Source: an uncultured archaeon
GTDB lineage: Archaea > Asgardarchaeota > Jordiarchaeia > Jordiarchaeales > Jordiarchaeaceae
Direction of reading: 5' to 3'
Assembly: GCA_964510585.1 (NCBI GenBank)
Contig: CAZECW010000071.1
Coordinates: 1-28,609 of the forward strand
Length of the DNA stretch: 28,609 nt
A program made the translations under genes and the position numbers. A model generated the notes under the pieces. That model was not told where the DNA came from, made no database searches, and saw only the letters and a program-made list of their open reading frames with translations. This document shows, piece after piece, positions 9,970-24,299 of this stretch. Within the stretch, counting starts at the first letter, position 1, and every line of letters begins with the position of its first letter.

Positions 9970-11244
9970 TTAACTGAGTATATCTGAGAACTTTACACTC
10001 CTTGAGTCATTTATACAGGGCATAAAGAAGAACGCAGCAGGCTCTATACCGATTTTATTTCCATTCAGTATCTCCTTTTGAATTGCTCTAATTAAACAGA
10101 TTCCCAATGGGATTTGTTTAATTGAGTAGTTTGCGAAAAGTGCCGATGTGAAAAGCCGGCCCTGCCTTACCAAAAATTGTATAACCAGAGGGTTTAAATC
10201 ATATTTTTTTTCCCAAGGATTATTAGGAGTAATAACTACTCTCCTACTCAGCTTTGATTCCTCTAATTTTCTTTTAGCCAATTTTATTTGATCAATTGTA
10301 ACAGATTTCCCTTCATCCGTTTTAGCTTTGTAGAATCTAAGAAATTTTCCCAATTCCCCCTCTCCATGTAAAATTCCTTCCACTTGATGTTCAAGCTCTA
10401 CTAATTTAACGTCTACTTCCTCTAACTTAAACCCGAAATATAAATAAAATTGTCCTCCCTCTTGAGGCTCCGAATACTTTGCAAACTTGTATTCTAATTC
10501 CGATAATACCTCACGCAAATTTTGAGATCTTAAAAGTATGGGTCCAGCCAAGTTCTCATTATTGATTCGTGGATTAGAATTGGAGGTAGGTAGCGAACCG
10601 AAAAAGCTTTGTCTTAATTCATTAATTGAAGTTTCGTATATGTGTGCTGACCCCGAAATTGTGGTTATGGTGCCCAAAGCCTTTTTACCACCAAATCTAC
10701 TTGCAACTTCTGTTAAAAAAACCGTATAAATACCAGCAACATCGTCGGGATATGCTCGGGCCATATCATTACTTCTAATATATATGGTCGAATGAATTTT
10801 TGAGCCTACTTTATGAAAAAGAACAATATTAATACAGGGAGGATTAGTGCTTAAAATGTCCGTTGGTGGGTTCCAGAGCTGGGCAAAAGCTACATTTTTC
10901 CCACTACTTAACTGATTTTTAATGTAATCCAGCTGGTTAAACGTGAATCTTTTTCTCATAGCCCATCCATAGCTATATACATGTTCCCCCTTCTCAGAAC
11001 TAATATATTGGGGAATATAACTCTCAAGAAGTGTATCCTTACTCAGCCCAATATAGTTTATTGGAACAAAATTTCCACTTTGCCAATCACTTAGATGAAT
11101 CGTAGCACAAAAAGTTTCCCTAGTTTCCTGTTTTTTGTCCTCAGTTATCTCCTTTATTCCTTTTTCGAGGATTGTGTTAATGCAACTTCTCCAAGCAACA
11201 TCTATATTTCTGGCTCGAATCAAATAAGGGCCGTAGAAGCTCAT
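9970..11244 (-). CDS. Thymidylate synthase / dCMP hydroxymethylase-fold protein with two tandem TS domains
   Basis: Domain 1: YSYG, QLDYI, LWNP, PPC137, R157SND...D168, SAH201IY203, with the same C-to-R and R-to-N/D spacing as E. coli ThyA. Domain 2 (aa about 230-424) repeats the N-terminus (GPILLRSQNL vs GPYLIRARNI) and has DQI and SR334R335VVI...QFLVRQGRL. Confidence 0.85.
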   Translation of the reverse strand: MSFYGPYLIRARNIDVAWRSCINTILEKGIKEITEDKKQETRETFCATIHLSDWQSGNFVPINYIGLSKDTLLESYIPQYISSEKGEHVYSYGWAMRKRFTFNQLDYIKNQLSSGKNVAFAQLWNPPTDILSTNPPCINIVLFHKVGSKIHSTIYIRSNDMARAYPDDVAGIYTVFLTEVASRFGGKKALGTITTISGSAHIYETSINELRQSFFGSLPTSNSNPRINNENLAGPILLRSQNLREVLSELEYKFAKYSEPQEGGQFYLYFGFKLEEVDVKLVELEHQVEGILHGEGELGKFLRFYKAKTDEGKSVTIDQIKLAKRKLEESKLSRRVVITPNNPWEKKYDLNPLVIQFLVRQGRLFTSALFANYSIKQIPLGICLIRAIQKEILNGNKIGIEPAAFFFMPCINDSRSVKFSDILS

Positions 11245-11246
11245 TT

Positions 11247-12749
11247 TTACTCACAACCAAGCTTTAAAGCATAATAGGGATGGGGAGGCTTTGGGTAAAT
11301 CCCAACCGTATTTATGTTCTCGTCCGCAATTGCAGCTTCAACAGCCGCTACCTTCCTGAATATAGCCTCAGCATTTTTTATTGGACCATAAAGATTAATG
11401 TCTATTCCATAAAGGGAAGGAAGAGCATAGTCAAAAGAAAAATCCAGATTTTTTAATTCACTGTTACTCTTAGATAGCCTTGATTGCAGATTGTGGATGC
11501 CAATACATACAGGATAACCATAGCAATTCTTAAATAACCAAGCTGCATGCAAAGCACTTATTGAACCTGCCCCCAGAATAGAAACACCAGGATCAATAAT
11601 TGGCTTCGTGATTAACCCCTCCATAAATTCAATTATTTCTCTGAACCGATTGATCCTTGAAGGTAGTTTTACATCAAAGGGCAAAACTATAGAATATTCT
11701 ATCCGTCCCATTTCGCCAATCATAGCCTTTTCTCTTTTATCCACGCCGCTAACCGAATTGTATATAACTCTACCATCTAAACCCAGATCTTTAGCTACAC
11801 CCATCGCTTCTATTCTTGCTTCCAAAACTGGCGAATCAAGAATTATTGGTGAGTCTGTGATATCTGCAACAAATAAAAGGTATCTTGTTAAAGCCTCAGA
11901 AGTTTCTCCAACTATGTGTACCATTGAGGGAATTTCGTATTTTAAAGAATTCTCCTCCTGTTTCCGAATTTGCTCCTCAGCCTTAATCTTATCAAAGACG
12001 CCTTCACTATGATTAACTACCAATTTATCCCCTCTATAAAACATGGTTCCTGCTAAAACTACGGGATATTCCCCTCTCTGCCCGCCTATCTTAATCCCAC
12101 ATATATCATAAACTCTTAGTTCCCCAGTAAATATCAAGGGATTTAATAGAGATATACCCTTATCAAGAAAGCTTTTATTTTCCTCTTGAAACCGCCTTAT
12201 TCCTTCACCCCAATCATATTCCACTTTGGGTGTTAATGGAAGAATAGGCTCCTCAGGAAATGGAGATATGTTTTGCGCATTAAGTTCATTGATTATAGAC
12301 ATCAATTTTTGAACGTTTGTTTCTCCTCGTGCATCCACCACCCTAACGATTTGACTTTGAAACCTTTTAACAAATTTATTCGGGTCGTCTCCCCTGAAAT
12401 AATTTGGATGCAAAACAGGTATAGTACCCTCACTTCCGATAATTCTATAATTTTCATCAATCCCATTGTTATAGAGCGAAATGATAGTTTGCCCCGGTTC
12501 ATGGCCAACTACACGCTCACCGCAGACTATGAGAAACCTAATATTTGGGTTTGAAGCCAAATTTTGTAAAATCTTAGCTATTCCACTATTCTCCGTCTCA
12601 CAAAAACCAACAATTGCAATTTTGTCACTCAATTTGGCTAACTCTTTTGGCAAATCGTAAGACCCACACGTAACTATGGCGATGGCCGCCTTTTCGTTTA
12701 TAACAACATAATCACCAGCAACGAATGGCCACTTTGACATAAACAACAT
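11247..12749 (-). CDS. mtrAH: MtrA-MtrH fusion (corrinoid protein + methylpterin:corrinoid methyltransferase)
   Basis: N-half: WPFVAGDYVV, TENSGIAKILQNLASNPNIRFLIVCG, GH83 cobamide ligand, IIGSEGTIP (MtrA). C-half: IKIGGQRGEYPVVLAGTMFY, FDKIKAE, IILDS, LYGPIKNA, HPYY (MtrH). Start is 12749 or 12740. Confidence 0.9.
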   Translation of the reverse strand: MLFMSKWPFVAGDYVVINEKAAIAIVTCGSYDLPKELAKLSDKIAIVGFCETENSGIAKILQNLASNPNIRFLIVCGERVVGHEPGQTIISLYNNGIDENYRIIGSEGTIPVLHPNYFRGDDPNKFVKRFQSQIVRVVDARGETNVQKLMSIINELNAQNISPFPEEPILPLTPKVEYDWGEGIRRFQEENKSFLDKGISLLNPLIFTGELRVYDICGIKIGGQRGEYPVVLAGTMFYRGDKLVVNHSEGVFDKIKAEEQIRKQEENSLKYEIPSMVHIVGETSEALTRYLLFVADITDSPIILDSPVLEARIEAMGVAKDLGLDGRVIYNSVSGVDKREKAMIGEMGRIEYSIVLPFDVKLPSRINRFREIIEFMEGLITKPIIDPGVSILGAGSISALHAAWLFKNCYGYPVCIGIHNLQSRLSKSNSELKNLDFSFDYALPSLYGIDINLYGPIKNAEAIFRKVAAVEAAIADENINTVGIYPKPPHPYYALKLGCE

Positions 12750-16510: not shown

Positions 16511-16801
16511 ATGTGTGTAAAGAAGCTATTAGTATTTACACAAGTGAATTGCCCTAACTGTCCAACAATGAAAAAGATTACCTTAGAAGTGGGCAAAAAG
16601 CTAAACATACCCGTAGAATTGGTAGATATCACAAATGGTGTACCAGAGTCTTTAGAATTCGATTTACTACAAAATCAAATTTACATTTCATCAACTCCTT
16701 CCGTAGTATTGGTAAACGAAGATGGGTCAATTAGGGAATTAGTGTTGGGAGAAATTATCTATCATGAAGAATTAGAGAGGCGAATATTTAACCAAGAGTG
16801 A
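16511..16801 (+). CDS. Thioredoxin/glutaredoxin-like protein (NrdH-like)
   Basis: CPNC redox motif near the N-terminus, STP cis-Pro motif; stop overlaps the nrdD ORF start (GTGA). Confidence 0.85.
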   Translation: MCVKKLLVFTQVNCPNCPTMKKITLEVGKKLNIPVELVDITNGVPESLEFDLLQNQIYISSTPSVVLVNEDGSIRELVLGEIIYHEELERRIFNQE

Positions 16802-19188
16802 TTGCTATGTCTAACTCCAGTCATTCATCAAAAAAGAGGGAAGAGCTCCCTTTGGAACCCGAAAGCAATGGAGACTTTATCCACTCCTTACTACCCCCCG
16901 TGAGGACTTCGAGGGGTACAATCGAGAACTTTGATGTTTCTAAAATAATTAAAAGTCTTGTTAAAGAAACAGGAATCGAAAAAGAGAAGGCTGCTGAGGT
17001 AGCAAAAAGAATTGTACAACGAATCATATCCTCTAATATCCAATGGCTTTCAAGTCCCATGATACGGGAAATGGCCTGCTCAGTACTAGCCGAAATGGGT
17101 ATGGTTGAGGAAAGAAAGCGGTATACCAGAATTGGTGTGCCGATTTATGACCTAAACGAGATGATTGTTAATCCACTCAAGCATACTTGGAATGCAAACT
17201 TACAGATAAATCCCGAAACTATTGCTAAAATAGTTTATGACAAAGTTATGTCCGAACACACTTACCTAACATTACCCGGATATTTAGAAGTTGAGGTTCC
17301 CTCTGGGAAAACTTTAAGATTCACAACCAACATAGCCGACGCTCACTTAATGGGTGACAACTATCACAAAGATAGGGAATACACCAGCATAAGAGATTAC
17401 TGCGCATCATGGGATCCCAGACTATTTATGGTTTTAGGATTAGAGCCAGATGGGCTGCAGGGCGCTCACTCTTCAAGCGCTGGGCCTGCCAAACACCTAA
17501 TAGTTTTTACAAACCATGCTGCAATATGGCTTGCCTCGTGGCAAAGTAATATGTCTGGAGGCCAAGGATTTCACAATTGGATGGAGTCAATTGCCTGGTA
17601 CCTAAAAGAATTAAAACAAGAAGAACTCACAAGGGCGGCACAAAACTTAGTATCCAGTATGAACCCTGCTACCTTAAACCTTAATGAAGCTTTATACGCA
17701 AAATTCAGCCAGATCCCCAAGGAGATAATAGATTCCATAGTGGCTTACACTATGAGAGTTTTTTATGAGCGTGAAGTGGAACAAGCTTGCCAACACACAC
17801 CTTTTATCGCTACTCAACAGTATGTTGCCCGTGGTGGCCAAGTGCCCTTCACTTCCATTGATATTGGCCCTGGTATAAAAAAGGAATTTATGGATGAGCC
17901 AGTAATCATGCCCGGCGGCAAAGTTAGTGAACGCTATGTTTATGGAGATTTTGTTGAAGAAGTTAAAAAATACTTTATAACTCTGATGAAAACAATGTAT
18001 AACGGCGATAGGCACGGTAAACTTTTCAATTATCCAAAGATTAACATAGAACTTCGCGAAGAATGGATGAAGCCTGAGTTTGAGGAGGCCTATATCTGGG
18101 CTGCAAAGTTAACCGCTAAGTACGGTCTTCCCTATTTTGTAAACTACCTCAATTGGAGAAGAAAAATCGTTGGCGGGTGCGTATCCTGCTGTTCCCATAC
18201 TTGGGCAGCAGACACTCCAGAACAAAAGGAGGAATACCTCACAGGAAATGCAGTGTTCGGCGCGATTCAAATGGATACTCCCAACCCTGTTGCTAGTGCT
18301 GCCAGAACTTTTAAACAGGACGAGAGTAAGTTTTTCGAAGACTTTACACAAATAATAAATAATGTGACTATACCAAGCCTTCTAAACCGATATAACATAA
18401 TTAAAAGAATTAAAAAACTTGGGCTAGCTCCACTATACAATGTTAAACGTCCAAATGGAAAAGATATGATTATTCCTGAAGAGCGGAAGCTTCTTATAGG
18501 AACCATCGGTTTCGCTGAAATGACCGAAATAGTGGTCGGTTACCCACTTTGGCATGAAGAGGGATTGAAATTTGCATTAAAGGTTATAAAAACAATGCAG
18601 GCACTGGCTGATGAGTGGTCAGAGGAAACTGGGCTCTCCATACAGATAACTAGGACACCTGCTGAGTCGGCTGCTGGTAGACTTGCTAAAATAATGTATG
18701 AACGGTATCCTGAAATTCGACCGTTTCTTAGAGGTAGTTATCCAAATGTTTATCTGACGAACTCGGTTCACCAGCCGGTAGACGCAGATATACCGTTATC
18801 TGAAAGAATAAAGAAGGAAGCAATGTTTGCTCCGCTCCTTGGAGGAGGCTTCCTTCAGCACATTTTCTTGGACGATGCTTATCCGGATCCTGAAGCCCTA
18901 TGGAAATTCATTCAAAAAATAGCCAGAAACACTCTTACTGCTTATTTTGATTTCACAGTGGATATGTGGACTTGTAGCAGTTGCCACAGTCAGGGGCGAA
19001 TGGATTGGAAACAGAACCAGTTCAATTCCGTAGAGGAACTCTTAGACTTTAAATGCCCGAAGTGTGGGAGCCCAAATGCCGAAATTCTTTCAAGAATAAC
19101 GGGATACCTGCAAGGGCTGAAAGGAACTTGGAATGATCCCAAAAAGCAAGAATTTCTAGAACGCAGAAGGTATAACCTAAATATTTAG
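16798..19188 (+). CDS. nrdD: Anaerobic (class III) ribonucleoside-triphosphate reductase with N-terminal ATP cone
   Basis: ATP cone (VRTSRGTIENFDVSKI), RGGQVPFTS, FNYP, SCC finger loop, IGTIGFAE, RTPAESAAGRLA, YLTNS, CSSC/CPKC zinc site, glycyl-radical SRITG769YL. Start may be ATG 16807. Confidence 0.95.
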   Translation: MIAMSNSSHSSKKREELPLEPESNGDFIHSLLPPVRTSRGTIENFDVSKIIKSLVKETGIEKEKAAEVAKRIVQRIISSNIQWLSSPMIREMACSVLAEMGMVEERKRYTRIGVPIYDLNEMIVNPLKHTWNANLQINPETIAKIVYDKVMSEHTYLTLPGYLEVEVPSGKTLRFTTNIADAHLMGDNYHKDREYTSIRDYCASWDPRLFMVLGLEPDGLQGAHSSSAGPAKHLIVFTNHAAIWLASWQSNMSGGQGFHNWMESIAWYLKELKQEELTRAAQNLVSSMNPATLNLNEALYAKFSQIPKEIIDSIVAYTMRVFYEREVEQACQHTPFIATQQYVARGGQVPFTSIDIGPGIKKEFMDEPVIMPGGKVSERYVYGDFVEEVKKYFITLMKTMYNGDRHGKLFNYPKINIELREEWMKPEFEEAYIWAAKLTAKYGLPYFVNYLNWRRKIVGGCVSCCSHTWAADTPEQKEEYLTGNAVFGAIQMDTPNPVASAARTFKQDESKFFEDFTQIINNVTIPSLLNRYNIIKRIKKLGLAPLYNVKRPNGKDMIIPEERKLLIGTIGFAEMTEIVVGYPLWHEEGLKFALKVIKTMQALADEWSEETGLSIQITRTPAESAAGRLAKIMYERYPEIRPFLRGSYPNVYLTNSVHQPVDADIPLSERIKKEAMFAPLLGGGFLQHIFLDDAYPDPEALWKFIQKIARNTLTAYFDFTVDMWTCSSCHSQGRMDWKQNQFNSVEELLDFKCPKCGSPNAEILSRITGYLQGLKGTWNDPKKQEFLERRRYNLNI

Positions 19189-21126: not shown

Positions 21127-21230
21127 ACATGGTAAATAGTCTTACGAATAAAAAATATTAATCAATATTGATTGGTAACCCCACTGGATTTAAAAATTTT
21201 ACAAGACTAACTATCGAGGCGTGGCTAAAT

Positions 21231-23213
21231 TTGGAAGAAGATAAAAAGCCCATTTTTGAAGTCGCCAAACATGATGGCCCGGGTAGAATTGGAAGGATAG
21301 AGTTAACAGATAAAAAAATTCTGACCCCCTCAATTATTCACGCTAAATATCCTCATATAAATTATGTTTCTGAAGAAATGTTAATTTTTAATATTCTCCC
21401 TGACTCTTTAAAAGAAAACAGTTATGTAAATGTTTTTATGACAAACACGGCTAATCCTCTCATTTATGACAACTTAGATCAATGTTTGGAAGACCAATTA
21501 AAATTACAGCCAAAGATTTTAACAGTTCCCTGCGGCCTTTTTTTAGAACTGGAACGGGAAAACACTAGAAAGTTTTTCGATAATCTACTTAAGAATTCTG
21601 TCTATTTCAAAGAAAGAGCTGAAAAAAGGTATCTCGCGGTTCCAATATTCTATTCAAGGTATTTCGATCTGTGTGAAAAGCACATATTTGATCTCTCTCA
21701 ACTAGGTTTTGACGTTTATATTTTGAAGAATATAGGGAACGTTATAGGGAATCCCCGTGAGTTGGTAGAATTTATTATAAAGGTCAGGGGAAAAATTCCG
21801 CCTAACTCTTTAGTTTATGTTCCGGGTCCAATTCATCCCGCATACTATTCTCATCTAGTCTATTTCGGAGTTGATATTTTCGATACAACACTTATGATAC
21901 AGGAGGCAAGAAGAAATAATTTATTACAAGAATTTGGGTCAAAAAAGATTTGGGATTTAGTTGAACTTCCTTGCAACTGTGAGATATGTTCAACATACAC
22001 TATTTCTGAATTAAGAGAGATGCATTCAAATGAGCGCTTTTATAAATTATTGCAACACAACATTCTTTTTTCAACCTCTGTATTAAAAAAGATTAGGTTA
22101 GATATAAGAGAGGGGTTCCTGCGGGAGAGAGTGGAGCTATCATCACATTACTCACCGGCAATGGCGGCCTCCCTTCGAATTATGGATAACACTCACTATA
22201 ATTTTCTTGAGGAGTACACTCCAATTGCTAAAAAGGGAATGGTATATTGTATAGGGTCGGAGTCCTATAATAGGCCGGAAATTAAACGATTTAGAATAAG
22301 GGTTTCAGAACGATATACCCCCATCATAGGTATCAAAACGGTAGTCATTTTACCCTGCTCCGCAAAAAAGCCCTACTCACTTTCACAATCACATAAAAGG
22401 TTTAGGAAAGTTATAAGAAGTGTTGGTAAGGGAATGATACAAGAGGTTATACTTTCGTCCCCCCTTGGACTTGTTCCAAGAGAGCTAGAACAAGTTTATC
22501 CCGCGGCGCATTATGATATTCCCGTGACAGGCGATTGGGATTACGAAGAAATAGAAATCGCTTCAAGTTCTCTCTCAAAATATTTGGAAAAGTTAGATAA
22601 AGAAACGGTAGTAATAGCACATTTAGATGGAGGATACCGCAAAGCCTGTTTAAAGGCTTCCGAGATTTCTGGAAAAGATATTATATTCACCGAGGTGAGC
22701 GGCAACATAACTGGAGAAAAAAGCTTGTCTAGTTTAAAAAGAAATCTAGAAGAGTATGCTGACTTGTCAGGCTCTAAAAAGATTGGGGCAATAGACTGTT
22801 TGAGAAAAATCGCTGACTACCAATTCGGGATAGGCGCCGCAGAAAAGCTAATACCTAACGATGCAGATTTTAGGAGAGATAGGATGGGGAATGTGAAAAT
22901 TTTAGTAGACCAAAAATTAATTGCTGTATTTACCCCAATATTTGGTTTACTTAGAATGACCCTAAAAGGCGCCGAAAGGTTAGTTGGTCACGGCTATTGG
23001 ATAGAATTTGATGGAGATATTCTAGATGGAAAAAACCTTTTCGCTCCAGGCGTTAAAGATGCAGACCCACAGATTAGACCGGGAGACTCTGTAATGATTT
23101 ATAATGTGGAAAAAGAACTAATTGCTGTGGGGATATCTAATATGAGTGGATTAGAGATGAAACAATGTAAAAAAGGTGTTGCCGTTGAGCTCACCGAGAA
23201 AAAGAAGGATTAA
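21231..23213 (+). CDS. arcS: Archaeosine synthase ArcS (TGT-like domain, lysine transferase domain, PUA domain)
   Basis: HDGPGRIG, GVDIFD, LPCNCEIC zinc site, ILPCSAKKPYSLSQSH (PCx3KPYx2Sx2H), YPAAHYDIPVTGDW, PUA LFAPGVKDADPQIRPGD. Start set at TTG 21231 after GAGG; the ORF track extends to 21168. Confidence 0.9.
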   Translation: MEEDKKPIFEVAKHDGPGRIGRIELTDKKILTPSIIHAKYPHINYVSEEMLIFNILPDSLKENSYVNVFMTNTANPLIYDNLDQCLEDQLKLQPKILTVPCGLFLELERENTRKFFDNLLKNSVYFKERAEKRYLAVPIFYSRYFDLCEKHIFDLSQLGFDVYILKNIGNVIGNPRELVEFIIKVRGKIPPNSLVYVPGPIHPAYYSHLVYFGVDIFDTTLMIQEARRNNLLQEFGSKKIWDLVELPCNCEICSTYTISELREMHSNERFYKLLQHNILFSTSVLKKIRLDIREGFLRERVELSSHYSPAMAASLRIMDNTHYNFLEEYTPIAKKGMVYCIGSESYNRPEIKRFRIRVSERYTPIIGIKTVVILPCSAKKPYSLSQSHKRFRKVIRSVGKGMIQEVILSSPLGLVPRELEQVYPAAHYDIPVTGDWDYEEIEIASSSLSKYLEKLDKETVVIAHLDGGYRKACLKASEISGKDIIFTEVSGNITGEKSLSSLKRNLEEYADLSGSKKIGAIDCLRKIADYQFGIGAAEKLIPNDADFRRDRMGNVKILVDQKLIAVFTPIFGLLRMTLKGAERLVGHGYWIEFDGDILDGKNLFAPGVKDADPQIRPGDSVMIYNVEKELIAVGISNMSGLEMKQCKKGVAVELTEKKKD

Positions 23214-23216
23214 AAA

Positions 23217-24299
23217 ATGCTAGGATGCAATGATTCTGAATTATCCAGTAAGATATTTGAAATCCGTCAAAAAGGTCTAAACAGATACAGAGAGGACTTT
23301 ACCAGAAGGCCTGTAAAATTCTGGTTGGAAAAGGACAGGTTGTTAAATAAGGTTGGAACATCTCTAGTGGTTATTCTTGCTACAAGAGGCTGCAGCTGGG
23401 CTTTATCAGATAAGGGAGGCTGCTCCATGTGCGGGTACATATATGACACGCCTATTACTGTCCCTGATTCCGAATCTTTAATTAAACAATTTGATTTGGC
23501 TTATGATGCCTGCCGCTCAGTTGAAGGTTCCTTAGCAATCAAAATTTTTACTTCTGGTAGTTTTTTGGACGAGCAGGAGGTTCCTAAAGCTGCAAGGAAA
23601 GCTATTTTTAAAAAAATCGCGTCAGATGAACGGGTTGAGGAAGTAATTGTGGAAACAAGACCGCAGTATGTGAATTATGAACTTTTAAGCGAATGCCACG
23701 ACATACTAAGGGACATCTATTTAGAGATAGGAATTGGCCTTGAAACAAGTAACGATGAAATCAGGAATCATTACATAAACAAAGGTTTCAATCTAAATGA
23801 GTTTGAGAGAGCTGTTTCAATAGCTAATAAAAGCGGGGTCGGTGTAAAGTCATACATACTTATTAAACCACCATTTCTAAGGGAAAGAGAAGCCATAATA
23901 GATTCTATACAGTCTGCTGAGGACTCTTTTAAAATCGGCGTAAATTCCATATCCTTTAATCCCTGCACAGTTCACAGAGGCACTCTAGTGGAATACCTTT
24001 GGAATCAGGGTAAGTATAGGCCTCCATGGCTTTGGAGTGTGATTGAAATCCTGAAAATCATCTCTAAGAATCTAACTAAAAACAAAAGAATTATCTGCAG
24101 TTTAGTAGGGATAGGAAGTGAAAAGGGCCCACATAACTGTGGAAAATGTGATAAAAGAATTAAAGACCTTTTGGCTGAATTCACATTAAATCAAAATCCG
24201 GAAGTACTGCTAAAGGCTGAGTGTGACTGTAAAAGTGAGTGGCGTGACTACTGTGAAGAGGAATTTATTTGGGACAGGACGCCCGATAAATACAAGTAA
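23217..24299 (+). CDS. raSEA: Radical SAM enzyme for archaeosine formation (RaSEA)
   Basis: TRGCSW...GGCSMCGY atypical cluster motif, IFTSGSFLD, VETRP, IGLET, YRPPWLWS; 3 nt downstream of arcS. Confidence 0.88.
   Translation: MLGCNDSELSSKIFEIRQKGLNRYREDFTRRPVKFWLEKDRLLNKVGTSLVVILATRGCSWALSDKGGCSMCGYIYDTPITVPDSESLIKQFDLAYDACRSVEGSLAIKIFTSGSFLDEQEVPKAARKAIFKKIASDERVEEVIVETRPQYVNYELLSECHDILRDIYLEIGIGLETSNDEIRNHYINKGFNLNEFERAVSIANKSGVGVKSYILIKPPFLREREAIIDSIQSAEDSFKIGVNSISFNPCTVHRGTLVEYLWNQGKYRPPWLWSVIEILKIISKNLTKNKRIICSLVGIGSEKGPHNCGKCDKRIKDLLAEFTLNQNPEVLLKAECDCKSEWRDYCEEEFIWDRTPDKYK

What the first reader, a model, noticed from the sequence alone, without database searches (positions are those of the whole stretch)
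10741..10776. Asp at the TS base-specificity position points to a cytosine nucleotide substrate
Seen: RSNDMARAYPDD. The residue 11 after R157 is Asp168 (GAT, nt 10741-10743). Known: this position is Asn177 in E. coli ThyA (RSCDVFLGLPFN) and Asp179 in T4 dCMP hydroxymethylase; Asn-to-Asp substitution shifts ThyA toward dCMP. Inference: a chromosomal archaeal dCMP/CMP C5-(hydroxy)methylase, giving either a modified cytosine or a dCMP to 5m-dCMP to dTMP route. The ThyA Arg21-equivalent loop (TEDKKQ) also lacks Arg.
Basis: partly seen in the sequence, partly recalled or inferred. Interest (0 to 1): 0.75.

Follow-up and report, generated by a model that had tools for sequence, protein, structure and literature searches.

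The report
Asp-type archaeal thymidylate synthase homologue
In some Asgard archaea the only thymidylate-synthase-like enzyme carries the aspartate that marks cytosine-using relatives, and its gene always follows a vitamin-B12-type methyl-carrier gene, so these cells may make the DNA base thymine by an undescribed route.

Summary
RSNDMARAYPDD lies at 10741-10776 on the minus strand, and D168 (GAT) aligns with E. coli ThyA Asn177.

The Asp is neither a sequencing error nor a private variant. It is present in 44 of 44 family members (41-99% identity), all from Asgard archaea. Of the 145 nearest other relatives, 141 have Asn. Two of the four exceptions were checked and lie on viral contigs.

The protein is a tandem of two TS folds. 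The N-domain is catalytic but lacks the Arg-Arg pair. The C-domain has lost the catalytic residues and keeps SRR.

In 18 of 18 genomes the gene directly follows an MtrA-MtrH fusion gene, and the MtrA part keeps the cobamide-binding signature.

In 16 of those 18 genomes it is the only TS homologue. ThyX was found in 0 of 18, thymidine kinase in at most 1, a dCMP-deaminase-family gene in 6, and a dCTP-deaminase-family gene in all 18. Published long-read methylation data on carriers show no global 5mC.

The enzyme therefore most likely feeds thymidylate synthesis rather than making a modified cytosine for DNA. Cytosine (about 0.42) and uracil (about 0.38) remain nearly equally likely as the substrate base.

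The scan had already found the tandem-TS/MtrAH module on another genome (e1-3795747).

The parts
9970..11244 (-). Gene for the 424-aa tandem TS-fold protein (P0001)
   Evidence: ORF. PF00303 E 2.7e-11. TIGR03283 scores 112 bits, below its 174.55 cut-off. AF2 model has pLDDT 93.3 and pTM 0.94.
10600..11244 (-). N-terminal catalytic TS domain (about residues 1-215)
   Evidence: VIA-align: 9iqu dCMP hydroxylase Z 22.5, MilA Z 20.7, TS Z 19.6, over residues 4-223. C137, R157, S158, D160, D168, H201 and Y203 are invariant. The canonical Arg-Arg position is never RR (0/44).
10741..10776 (-). Motif R157-S-N-D-M-A-R-A-Y-P-D167-D168, the reported finding
   Evidence: Coordinates; alignment to solved TS chains.
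10741..10743 (-). D168 (GAT), equivalent to E. coli ThyA N177 and T4 dCH D179
   Evidence: Invariant in 44/44 family members. Asn in 141/145 nearest relatives. One N-to-D change on the tree.
10744..10746 (-). D167, always Asp or Glu in the family (ThyA has Phe176 here), forming an acidic pair with D168
   Evidence: Motif table. Not acidic in the four other Asp-type relatives.
10834..10836 (-). C137, the catalytic nucleophile (ThyA C146)
   Evidence: Invariant P-P-C; aligned to the TS PPC.
10843..10845 (-). N134, equivalent to ThyA L143 (Cys minus 3)
   Evidence: N in 30 and D in 14 of 44 members. The position is also polar in most Asn-type relatives, so it does not discriminate.
10636..10644 (-). 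H201-I-Y203, the deoxyribose 3'-OH binding pair (ThyA H207/Y209)
   Evidence: Invariant.
10540..10599 (-). Interdomain linker (about residues 216-235)
   Evidence: pLDDT dips to 72-81 in the whole-chain model.
9973..10539 (-). C-terminal degenerate TS-fold domain (about residues 236-424)
   Evidence: Folded alone: pLDDT 90.4. Seven TS-superfamily chains score Z 12.7-15.9 and the next hit scores 5.8. The profile matches the TS 'IDQ..SRR..WNP' segment. No Cys; ANYS replaces RSxD.
10240..10245 (-). R334-R335 (the SRR motif) in the C-domain, equivalent to ThyA R126'/R127'
   Evidence: Invariant in the C-domain alignment A4 and at least 90% conserved in A2.
11247..12749 (-). Upstream partner gene, an MtrA-MtrH fusion of 500 aa; its stop codon lies 2 nt before the TS start codon
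   Evidence: PF04208 E 2.9e-38 and PF02007 E 1.4e-57. PDB sequence hits: MtrH 8z9u, MtgA 6sj8, MtrA 5l8x. Adjacent and upstream in 18/18 carrier genomes.
12501..12503 (-). His83 of the MtrA domain, equivalent to the cobalt ligand His84
   Evidence: The motifs CGERVxGH[E/A]PGQT, E53-N54 and GTIP are conserved in four Asgard fusions. Their roles are taken from PMC4915002.

Best explanation
Asp168 is a fixed, derived residue that defines this clade. It sits in the single active site of a single-chain, two-domain thymidylate-synthase-fold enzyme. That enzyme works with the upstream MtrA-MtrH cobamide protein, and the pair is the thymidylate-forming system of several Asgard lineages.

Proposed mechanism (inferred, not shown):
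1. MtrH passes the methyl group of methyl-H4MPT to the cobamide bound on MtrA.
2. In the TS N-domain, Cys137 adds to C6 of a 2'-deoxypyrimidine 5'-monophosphate. Its phosphate is held by R157/S158 together with R334/R335 from the dead C-domain.
3. Asp168, assisted by D/E167, protonates N3 of cytosine.
4. C5 takes the one-carbon unit, giving 5-methyl-dCMP.
5. 5-methyl-dCMP is deaminated to dTMP. This could happen in the same site (5,6-dihydrocytosine adducts deaminate easily), by a dCMP deaminase where one is present, or at the triphosphate level by the dCTP-deaminase-family enzyme.

Shown here: the residue pattern, its conservation, the domain architecture, the gene linkage and the absence of any other known thymidylate route. 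Inferred: the substrate base, the methyl donor and the deamination step.
For: - Conservation: Asp is invariant in 44/44 members down to 41% identity, and Asn occurs in 141/145 nearest relatives. The Asp clade is monophyletic (SH-aLRT 100) with a long stem.
- Residue rule: every characterised natural TS-superfamily enzyme with Asp at this site uses cytosine (T4 dCH, MilA, BcmA, RB69/DLP3 5-hydroxy-dCMP synthases). N-to-D converts TS to a dCMP methylase, and D179N cuts T4 dCH kcat about 3600-fold (PMC6400193, PMC5175136, PMC13326640).
- Other Asp-type relatives: the two that were checked are viral.
- Structure: the best structural matches are cytosine-nucleotide enzymes (9iqu Z 22.5, MilA Z 20.7, against TS at 19.6).
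- Sugar: the deoxy-type residues S158, R335 and H201/Y203 are kept.
- Sole route: it is the only PF00303 gene in 16/18 carrier genomes. ThyX is found in 0/18 and TK in at most 1/18.
- Partner: the full-length MtrAH fusion occurs in exactly the same 18 of 151 Asgard genomes, always adjacent and upstream (also 18-20). The MtrA domain keeps the His84, Glu54/Asn55 and GxIP signature.
- C1 metabolism: H4MPT-based C1 metabolism is present (Mch and a MetF-like gene) and no DHFR was found.
Against: - No consistent deaminase: PF00383 is found in only 6/18 carriers and not in this genome.
- dUMP supply: a dCTP deaminase, whose only known role is to supply dUMP, is kept in 18/18 carriers and passes the TIGR02274 cut-off here. 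That fits a dUMP substrate more simply.
- Asn-type relatives lie in dUTPase-TS-thymidylate kinase operons, so the ancestral substrate was dUMP.
- D160 (ThyA D169, a pterin contact) is invariant, which may mean a pterin still binds the TS site directly.
- No natural cobamide-dependent TS-fold enzyme is known.
Confidence: 0.42

Rival explanations
1. The same module has the same cellular role as sole thymidylate synthase, but the substrate is still dUMP. Asp168 is kept protonated by the neighbouring D/E167 and mimics Asn. Alternatively it acts as a base on N3-H, making the C5 enolate nucleophilic enough for a weak methyl donor such as methyl-cobamide.
For: - Pathway parsimony: dCTP deaminase is found in 18/18 carriers. 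No extra deaminase is then needed, which matters because PF00383 is found in only 6/18.
- The Asn-type relatives are dUMP enzymes sitting in dUTPase/Tmk operons.
- The acidic pair [D/E]-D is unique to this clade and is absent from viral Asp-type enzymes.
- The N-to-D change coincides with gaining the MtrAH partner.
- Carriers show no global 5mC in their DNA (PMC11529989).
Against: - No characterised natural uracil-using TS-fold enzyme has Asp here.
- Engineered N-to-D TS variants lose dUMP activity and gain dCMP activity.
- An Asp enzyme would be expected to accept dCMP too, so it could not exclude it.
Confidence: 0.38
2. This is a dCMP (or CMP) methylase or hydroxymethylase whose product is an end in itself: a modified cytosine in DNA or RNA, or a metabolite. 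dTMP would then come from an unknown enzyme or from uptake.
For: - The Asp rule.
- N134/D134 lies at the L143 position, which is acidic in hydroxymethylases.
- The top structural matches are cytosine-modifying enzymes.
- This genome does hold a second, Asn-type ThyA.
Against: - The second ThyA is missing from 16/18 carriers, including three closed genomes, and those have no ThyX or TK either.
- The gene lies in the core chromosome between proteasome/exosome genes and leuA.
- Long-read methylation analysis of Atabeyarchaeia and Freyarchaeia found only motif-limited m4C/m6A and two candidate 5mC motifs.
- The L143 position is polar in the Asn-type relatives as well.
- The ribo-type residues are not present (S158/R335).
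Confidence: 0.12
3. The Asp is a sequencing error or a private variant, or the gene is a decaying pseudo-enzyme.
For: None found. GAT differs from AAT by only one base.
Against: - Asp occurs in 44/44 independent assemblies.
- The reading frame is intact, and the catalytic residues and the complementary RR pair are invariant.
- The model is confident.
Confidence: 0.01

Closest known systems
Homodimeric thymidylate synthase ThyA (EC 2.1.1.45; PF00303), especially the short archaeal type (TIGR03283)
   Same: Same fold in both halves. Conserved: catalytic Cys, R166/S167/D169, H207/Y209, E58 and Y94. Probable cellular role in dTMP supply.
   Different: Asp replaces Asn177. Two fused, specialised domains replace the homodimer, with the Arg-Arg pair only in the dead domain. 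The score is below the NCBIfam equivalog cut-off. There is an obligatory MtrAH neighbour and no DHFR in the genome.
Phage T4 dCMP hydroxymethylase gp42 and the engineered L. casei N229D / E. coli N177D dCMP methylases
   Same: Asp at the specificity and N3-protonation position; deoxy-type Ser/Arg; polar residue at Cys minus 3 (T4 D145).
   Different: Those are viral or engineered homodimers that use methylene-tetrahydrofolate, and their product enters DNA as a modified C. This protein is cellular, lies in the core chromosome and is the only TS homologue. Carriers show no global cytosine modification.
MilA/BcmA CMP hydroxymethylases
   Same: Asp186 equivalent; strong structural match (Z 20.7).
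   Different: The ribose-selecting Lys133'/Ala176 of MilA are Arg335/Ser158 here. There is no antibiotic gene cluster.
Flavin-dependent 5-hydroxy-dCMP synthases (phage HY126 AfhB, PDB 9iqu/9iqc; RB69 gp48)
   Same: Best structural match (Z 22.5); compact TS fold of about 215 aa; Asp at the specificity site.
   Different: Their diagnostic D169N change is absent, since D160 is kept here. They are viral and oxygen-dependent, whereas these hosts are anaerobes (NrdD, H4MPT pathway).
MtrA-like + TS + DUF4346 fusion proteins of DPANN archaea and CPR bacteria (uncharacterised)
   Same: They are the nearest sequence relatives of the N-domain, and a TS fold is likewise physically coupled to an MtrA-fold domain.
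   Different: They have Asn and a normal RR pair. Their MtrA-like domain lacks the His/Glu-Asn cobamide signature, and they have no MtrH. They sit between dUTPase/DCD and thymidylate kinase genes.
MtrA/MtrH of the methanogen methyl-H4MPT:CoM methyltransferase, and MtgA-type methylcorrinoid:pterin methyltransferases (for the partner gene)
   Same: The MtrA cobamide signature and the MtrH pterin-binding barrel are conserved.
   Different: The partner is soluble and fused, with no MtrB-G and no membrane anchor. A TS-fold enzyme stands where MtrE and coenzyme M would be the methyl acceptor.

Membership tests
Thymidylate synthase ThyA (PF00303 / TIGR03283) | Significant match to the family model | tested here: met
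   PF00303 scores 43.6 bits against a cut-off of 24.3. However, the equivalog TIGR03283 scores 112 bits against a cut-off of 174.55, so that cut-off is not reached.
Thymidylate synthase ThyA (PF00303 / TIGR03283) | Catalytic Cys146 with R166, S167, D169, H207 and Y209 | tested here: met
   C137, R157, S158, D160, H201 and Y203 are invariant in 44 sequences and align to solved TS chains.
Thymidylate synthase ThyA (PF00303 / TIGR03283) | Asn177, which binds uracil O4/N3-H and excludes dCMP | tested here: not met
   D168 in 44/44 members.
Thymidylate synthase ThyA (PF00303 / TIGR03283) | Arg126'/Arg127' supplied by an identical second subunit | tested here: not met
   The N-domain has no RR at this position (0/44). 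The RR pair is present only in the fused, inactive C-domain.
Thymidylate synthase ThyA (PF00303 / TIGR03283) | Converts dUMP to dTMP with methylene-pterin | not testable with these tools
   Needs an enzyme assay.
dCMP hydroxymethylase / dCMP methylase branch of the TS superfamily | Asp at the N177 position | tested here: met
   the rule is taken.
dCMP hydroxymethylase / dCMP methylase branch of the TS superfamily | Acidic residue at the L143 position (marks a hydroxymethyl product) | tested here: inconclusive
   N134 here, with D in 14/44 members. The position is also polar in most Asn-type relatives of this archaeal clade.
dCMP hydroxymethylase / dCMP methylase branch of the TS superfamily | Product replaces C in DNA; viral context | tested here: not met
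   The context is core chromosome. Published long-read data on carriers show only motif-limited methylation.
CMP hydroxymethylase (MilA/BcmA) | Lys133' and Ala176 in place of Arg and Ser (ribose selection) | tested here: not met
   R335 and S158 are present; the rule is.
Flavin-dependent 5-hydroxy-dCMP synthase | D169N signature | tested here: not met
   D160 is invariant; the rule is.
MtrA cobamide protein (partner gene) | His84 cobalt ligand, Glu54/Asn55 and the GAIPF-type loop | tested here: met
   H83, E53-N54 and GTIP are conserved in four Asgard fusions. 5l8x matches at E 2e-29. Cobamide binding itself was not tested.

The most novel reading that the evidence does not exclude
This would be a third way to make thymidylate. 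A cobamide-dependent, single-chain pseudo-dimeric TS-fold enzyme takes a methyl group, not a methylene group, from methyl-H4MPT via MtrH and MtrA-cobamide. It places the methyl on C5 of dCMP, which is activated by Cys137 and Asp168. Deamination to dTMP then occurs in the same site or downstream. No dihydropterin is formed, so no DHFR-type reductase is needed.
Probability: 0.25. Interest if true: 0.9.

Novelty: new variant of a known kind. Interest (0 to 1): 0.7.

Why it matters
Two routes to thymidylate are known, ThyA and ThyX, and both are drug targets and markers in the evolution of DNA.

Several Asgard lineages, including Jord-, Frey-, Njord- and Atabeyarchaeia-like groups, have neither a normal ThyA nor ThyX. 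They have only this Asp-type tandem enzyme, tied to a cobamide methyl carrier. [quoted passage not shown]

It would also be the first cellular, chromosomal Asp-type member of a superfamily in which Asp has so far meant phage DNA modification or antibiotic synthesis.

If it turns out to use dUMP, it breaks the most trusted specificity rule of the TS superfamily. That rule is now used to predict phage DNA modifications.

Tried and rejected
- Complex prediction of the TS-like protein with the MtrA domain (residues 1-180) gave 'no answer' (score 0.00). This is not used as evidence either way.
- Model coordinates are not exposed to the Python box. The distance from R334/R335 to C137 in the AF2 model could therefore not be measured, and the composite site rests on the complementary residue pattern and on pTM 0.94.
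- The L143 'methyl versus hydroxymethyl' rule does not discriminate in this clade.
- Four literature searches found nothing describing the module: MtrH + thymidylate synthase + Asgard; MtrA + thymidylate synthase + corrinoid; DUF4346; and dCMP hydroxylase. PMC11291895 describes the Asgard MtrAH fusion but does not mention the TS neighbour. PMC9931769 surveys Asgard ThyA and ThyX without noting the Asp or the duplication.
- Sequencing error or private variant: rejected on conservation.
- CMP substrate: rejected on Ser158/Arg335.
- Flavin hydroxylase: rejected on D160.
- The roughly 19-kb spacing between the short ThyA and an MtrH gene in another Asgard family was judged to be plain synteny, not linkage.

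Full report
**Observation.**
The ORF at 9970..11244 on the minus strand encodes a 424-aa protein, P0001. A script located RSNDMARAYPDD at residues 157-168. Pfam PF00303 matches residues 87-212. The archaeal TS model TIGR03283 gives 112 bits, below its equivalog cut-off of 174.55. A profile of the family aligned to solved TS chains puts the motif against RSGDMGLGVPFN with no gap, so D168 corresponds to E. coli N177.

**Is the Asp real and conserved?**
A protein search found 43 full-length or near-full-length homologues of 365-433 aa at 41-99% identity. All those that carry a name come from Asgard archaea (Jord-, Frey-, Njord-, Atabey- and Lokiarchaeia labels).
- D168 is invariant in their alignment, as are C137, R157, S158, D160, H201 and Y203.
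- An exhaustive search with the N-domain returned 150 representatives. Of 145 other relatives, 141 have Asn and 4 have Asp.
- Two of those four were checked. They lie on a phi29-like virus contig and on another virus-like contig.
- In a quick maximum-likelihood tree the Asp family is one clade (SH-aLRT 100, stem length 1.33) among short Asn-type archaeal ThyAs. The tree needs a single N-to-D change.

**What the protein is.**
It is a tandem of two TS folds.
- The whole-chain AlphaFold model is confident (pLDDT 93.3, pTM 0.94).
- The N-domain matches TS-superfamily structures at Z 19-22.5. The best matches are the phage HY126 dCMP hydroxylase (9iqu) and MilA.
- The C-domain, folded alone, has pLDDT 90.4. 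It matches seven TS-superfamily representatives at Z 12.7-15.9, and the next hit scores 5.8.
- The residues are complementary. The N-domain has every catalytic and nucleotide-binding residue except the Arg-Arg pair that ThyA borrows from its partner subunit (0/44 have RR there). The C-domain has lost the Cys and the RSxD motif but keeps an invariant SRR.

This argues for a single composite active site.

**Gene context.**
Two bases upstream on the same strand ends a 500-aa MtrA-MtrH fusion gene.
- In a sample of 151 Asgard genomes, the tandem TS occurs in 18.
- The full-length MtrAH fusion occurs in exactly those 18. It is always adjacent, upstream and co-oriented. The other neighbouring genes differ between genomes.
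- The MtrA part keeps His83, E53-N54 and GTIP. In MtrA these correspond to the cobalt ligand His84, Glu54/Asn55 and the conserved loop (PMC4915002).
- The MtrH part matches solved MtrH and the methylcorrinoid:pterin methyltransferase MtgA.
- PMC11291895 describes this Asgard MtrAH fusion as being of unknown function and does not mention the TS neighbour.

The nearest relatives of the N-domain are fusions of an MtrA-like domain, TS and DUF4346, found in DPANN archaea and CPR bacteria.
- They have Asn and a normal RR pair.
- Their MtrA-like domain lacks the cobamide signature.
- They sit between dUTPase/DCD and thymidylate kinase genes, so they are ordinary dUMP-to-dTMP enzymes.

Coupling of this TS lineage to an MtrA fold is therefore old. 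The Asp, the duplication and the MtrH fusion are Asgard innovations.

**Cellular role.**

| Gene family | Found in the 18 carrier genomes |
|---|---|
| A second, separate PF00303 gene | 2 (this genome and one congener) |
| ThyX | 0 |
| TK-type thymidine kinase | at most 1 (one weak hit) |
| PF00383 (dCMP/cytidine deaminase family) | 6 (not this genome) |
| DCD (dCTP deaminase) family | 18 |

- The three closed genomes among the carriers have no second PF00303 gene.
- The extra gene in this genome is a short Asn-type ThyA on contig C121. It sits in a small cluster with a vWA-like protein, a QueC-like protein and a PK-barrel-like protein.
- The DCD-family gene of this genome passes the dCTP-deaminase equivalog cut-off.
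- This genome has no DHFR. It has Mch and a MetF-like gene, so it runs H4MPT-type C1 metabolism.
- The window itself is core chromosome: exosome, SBDS, proteasome alpha subunit, leuA, nrdD, arcTGT and ribosomal proteins.
- PacBio and Nanopore analysis of Atabeyarchaeia-1 (which carries the orthologue P0032), Atabeyarchaeia-2 and Freyarchaeia found only motif-limited m4C/m6A and two candidate 5mC motifs (PMC11529989).

Together this makes the module the only recognisable source of thymidylate. It argues against bulk replacement of C by a modified cytosine.

**Which base?**

*The residue rule points to cytosine.*
- Asp179 of T4 dCH protonates N3 and sets dCMP specificity.
- MilA, BcmA and the 5-hydroxy-dCMP synthases all have Asp at this site.
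- N-to-D turns TS into a dCMP methylase.
- An Asp enzyme could hardly exclude dCMP.

*The pathway context points to uracil.*
- dCTP deaminase is retained everywhere.
- No consistent 5-methyl-dCMP deaminase is seen.
- The ancestors of this enzyme used dUMP.

*Other active-site readings.*
- The acidic pair [D/E]167-D168 is unique to this clade. It fits either a proton-sharing Asp that can read uracil or an acid/base pair for N3 protonation and C4 deamination.
- The other 'code' positions read deoxy (S158, R335), not flavin (D160), and uninformative at L143 (N134).
- My estimates are: cytosine first with the product ending as dTMP, about 0.42; dUMP direct, about 0.38; modified cytosine as an end product, about 0.12.

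**One-carbon donor.**
The strict linkage to an MtrH-MtrA fusion with an intact cobamide signature suggests that a methyl group is handed over from methyl-H4MPT through methyl-Co(III). The lack of DHFR points the same way. In this scheme the TS-fold enzyme takes the place of MtrE and coenzyme M. This is inference only. The invariant D160, a pterin contact in ThyA, leaves room for direct pterin binding. I give the cobamide route about 0.45.

**Verdict.**
The Asp is a genuine, clade-defining change in what is probably the sole thymidylate-forming enzyme of these archaea. It is a new variant of the TS superfamily: the first cellular, chromosomal Asp-type member, a single-chain pseudo-dimer, and coupled to a cobamide carrier. 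Its substrate base and methyl donor can only be settled by assay.

Noticed in passing
G000 contig C121, L029:9126-13298 (short ThyA at L029:10172-10804, equal to L001:1351-1983): A second, short (about 210 aa) Asn-type ThyA has Tyr at the L143 position. It sits in a four-gene run: a vWA-like protein with a zinc ribbon, the ThyA, a QueC-like protein and a pyruvate-kinase-barrel-like protein. Among the 18 carrier genomes it is present only in this genome and one congener. It may be an accessory nucleotide- or DNA-modification cassette.
   Followed up: partly
L030:5499-8409 and L032:661-2914: In DPANN/CPR contigs the MtrA-like + TS + DUF4346 fusion lies directly after a dUTPase/DCD gene. In L030 it lies directly before thymidylate kinase and glutaredoxin genes. 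One relative (P0047) even fuses the kinase. The role of the MtrA-like and DUF4346 domains, which lack the cobamide His, in an ordinary TS is unexplained.
   Followed up: partly
L003:9963-13158: Downstream of the module in another Asgard genome, a thymidylate-kinase fragment, an RRXRR/HNH endonuclease gene and a full thymidylate-kinase gene lie together. This may be a kinase gene disrupted or duplicated by a homing-endonuclease-type element.
   Followed up: no
L033:8001-9258: A phi29-like virus contig carries an Asp-type TS homologue directly followed by a dUTPase/DCD-family gene. This pairing may supply and modify dCMP for viral DNA.
   Followed up: no
G041:C6:271079-272350 and G058:C52:157512-158783: The orthologues in one Asgard genus show one in-frame TGA within the matched stretch. 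It could be a real stop near the end, recoding or an assembly error.
   Followed up: no
window 16798-19188 (+) and 21168-24299 (+): An anaerobic ribonucleotide reductase NrdD with an ATP-cone lies 5.5 kb from the module. An archaeosine-type tRNA-guanine transglycosylase (TGT-DUF5591-PUA) is followed by a radical-SAM gene. Both fit a housekeeping, anaerobic chromosome region.
   Followed up: no
G000 contigs C29, C208, C99 (L006-L008): There are three further stand-alone full-length MtrH genes in the genome, besides the fusion. They indicate other corrinoid-dependent methyl-transfer systems.
   Followed up: no
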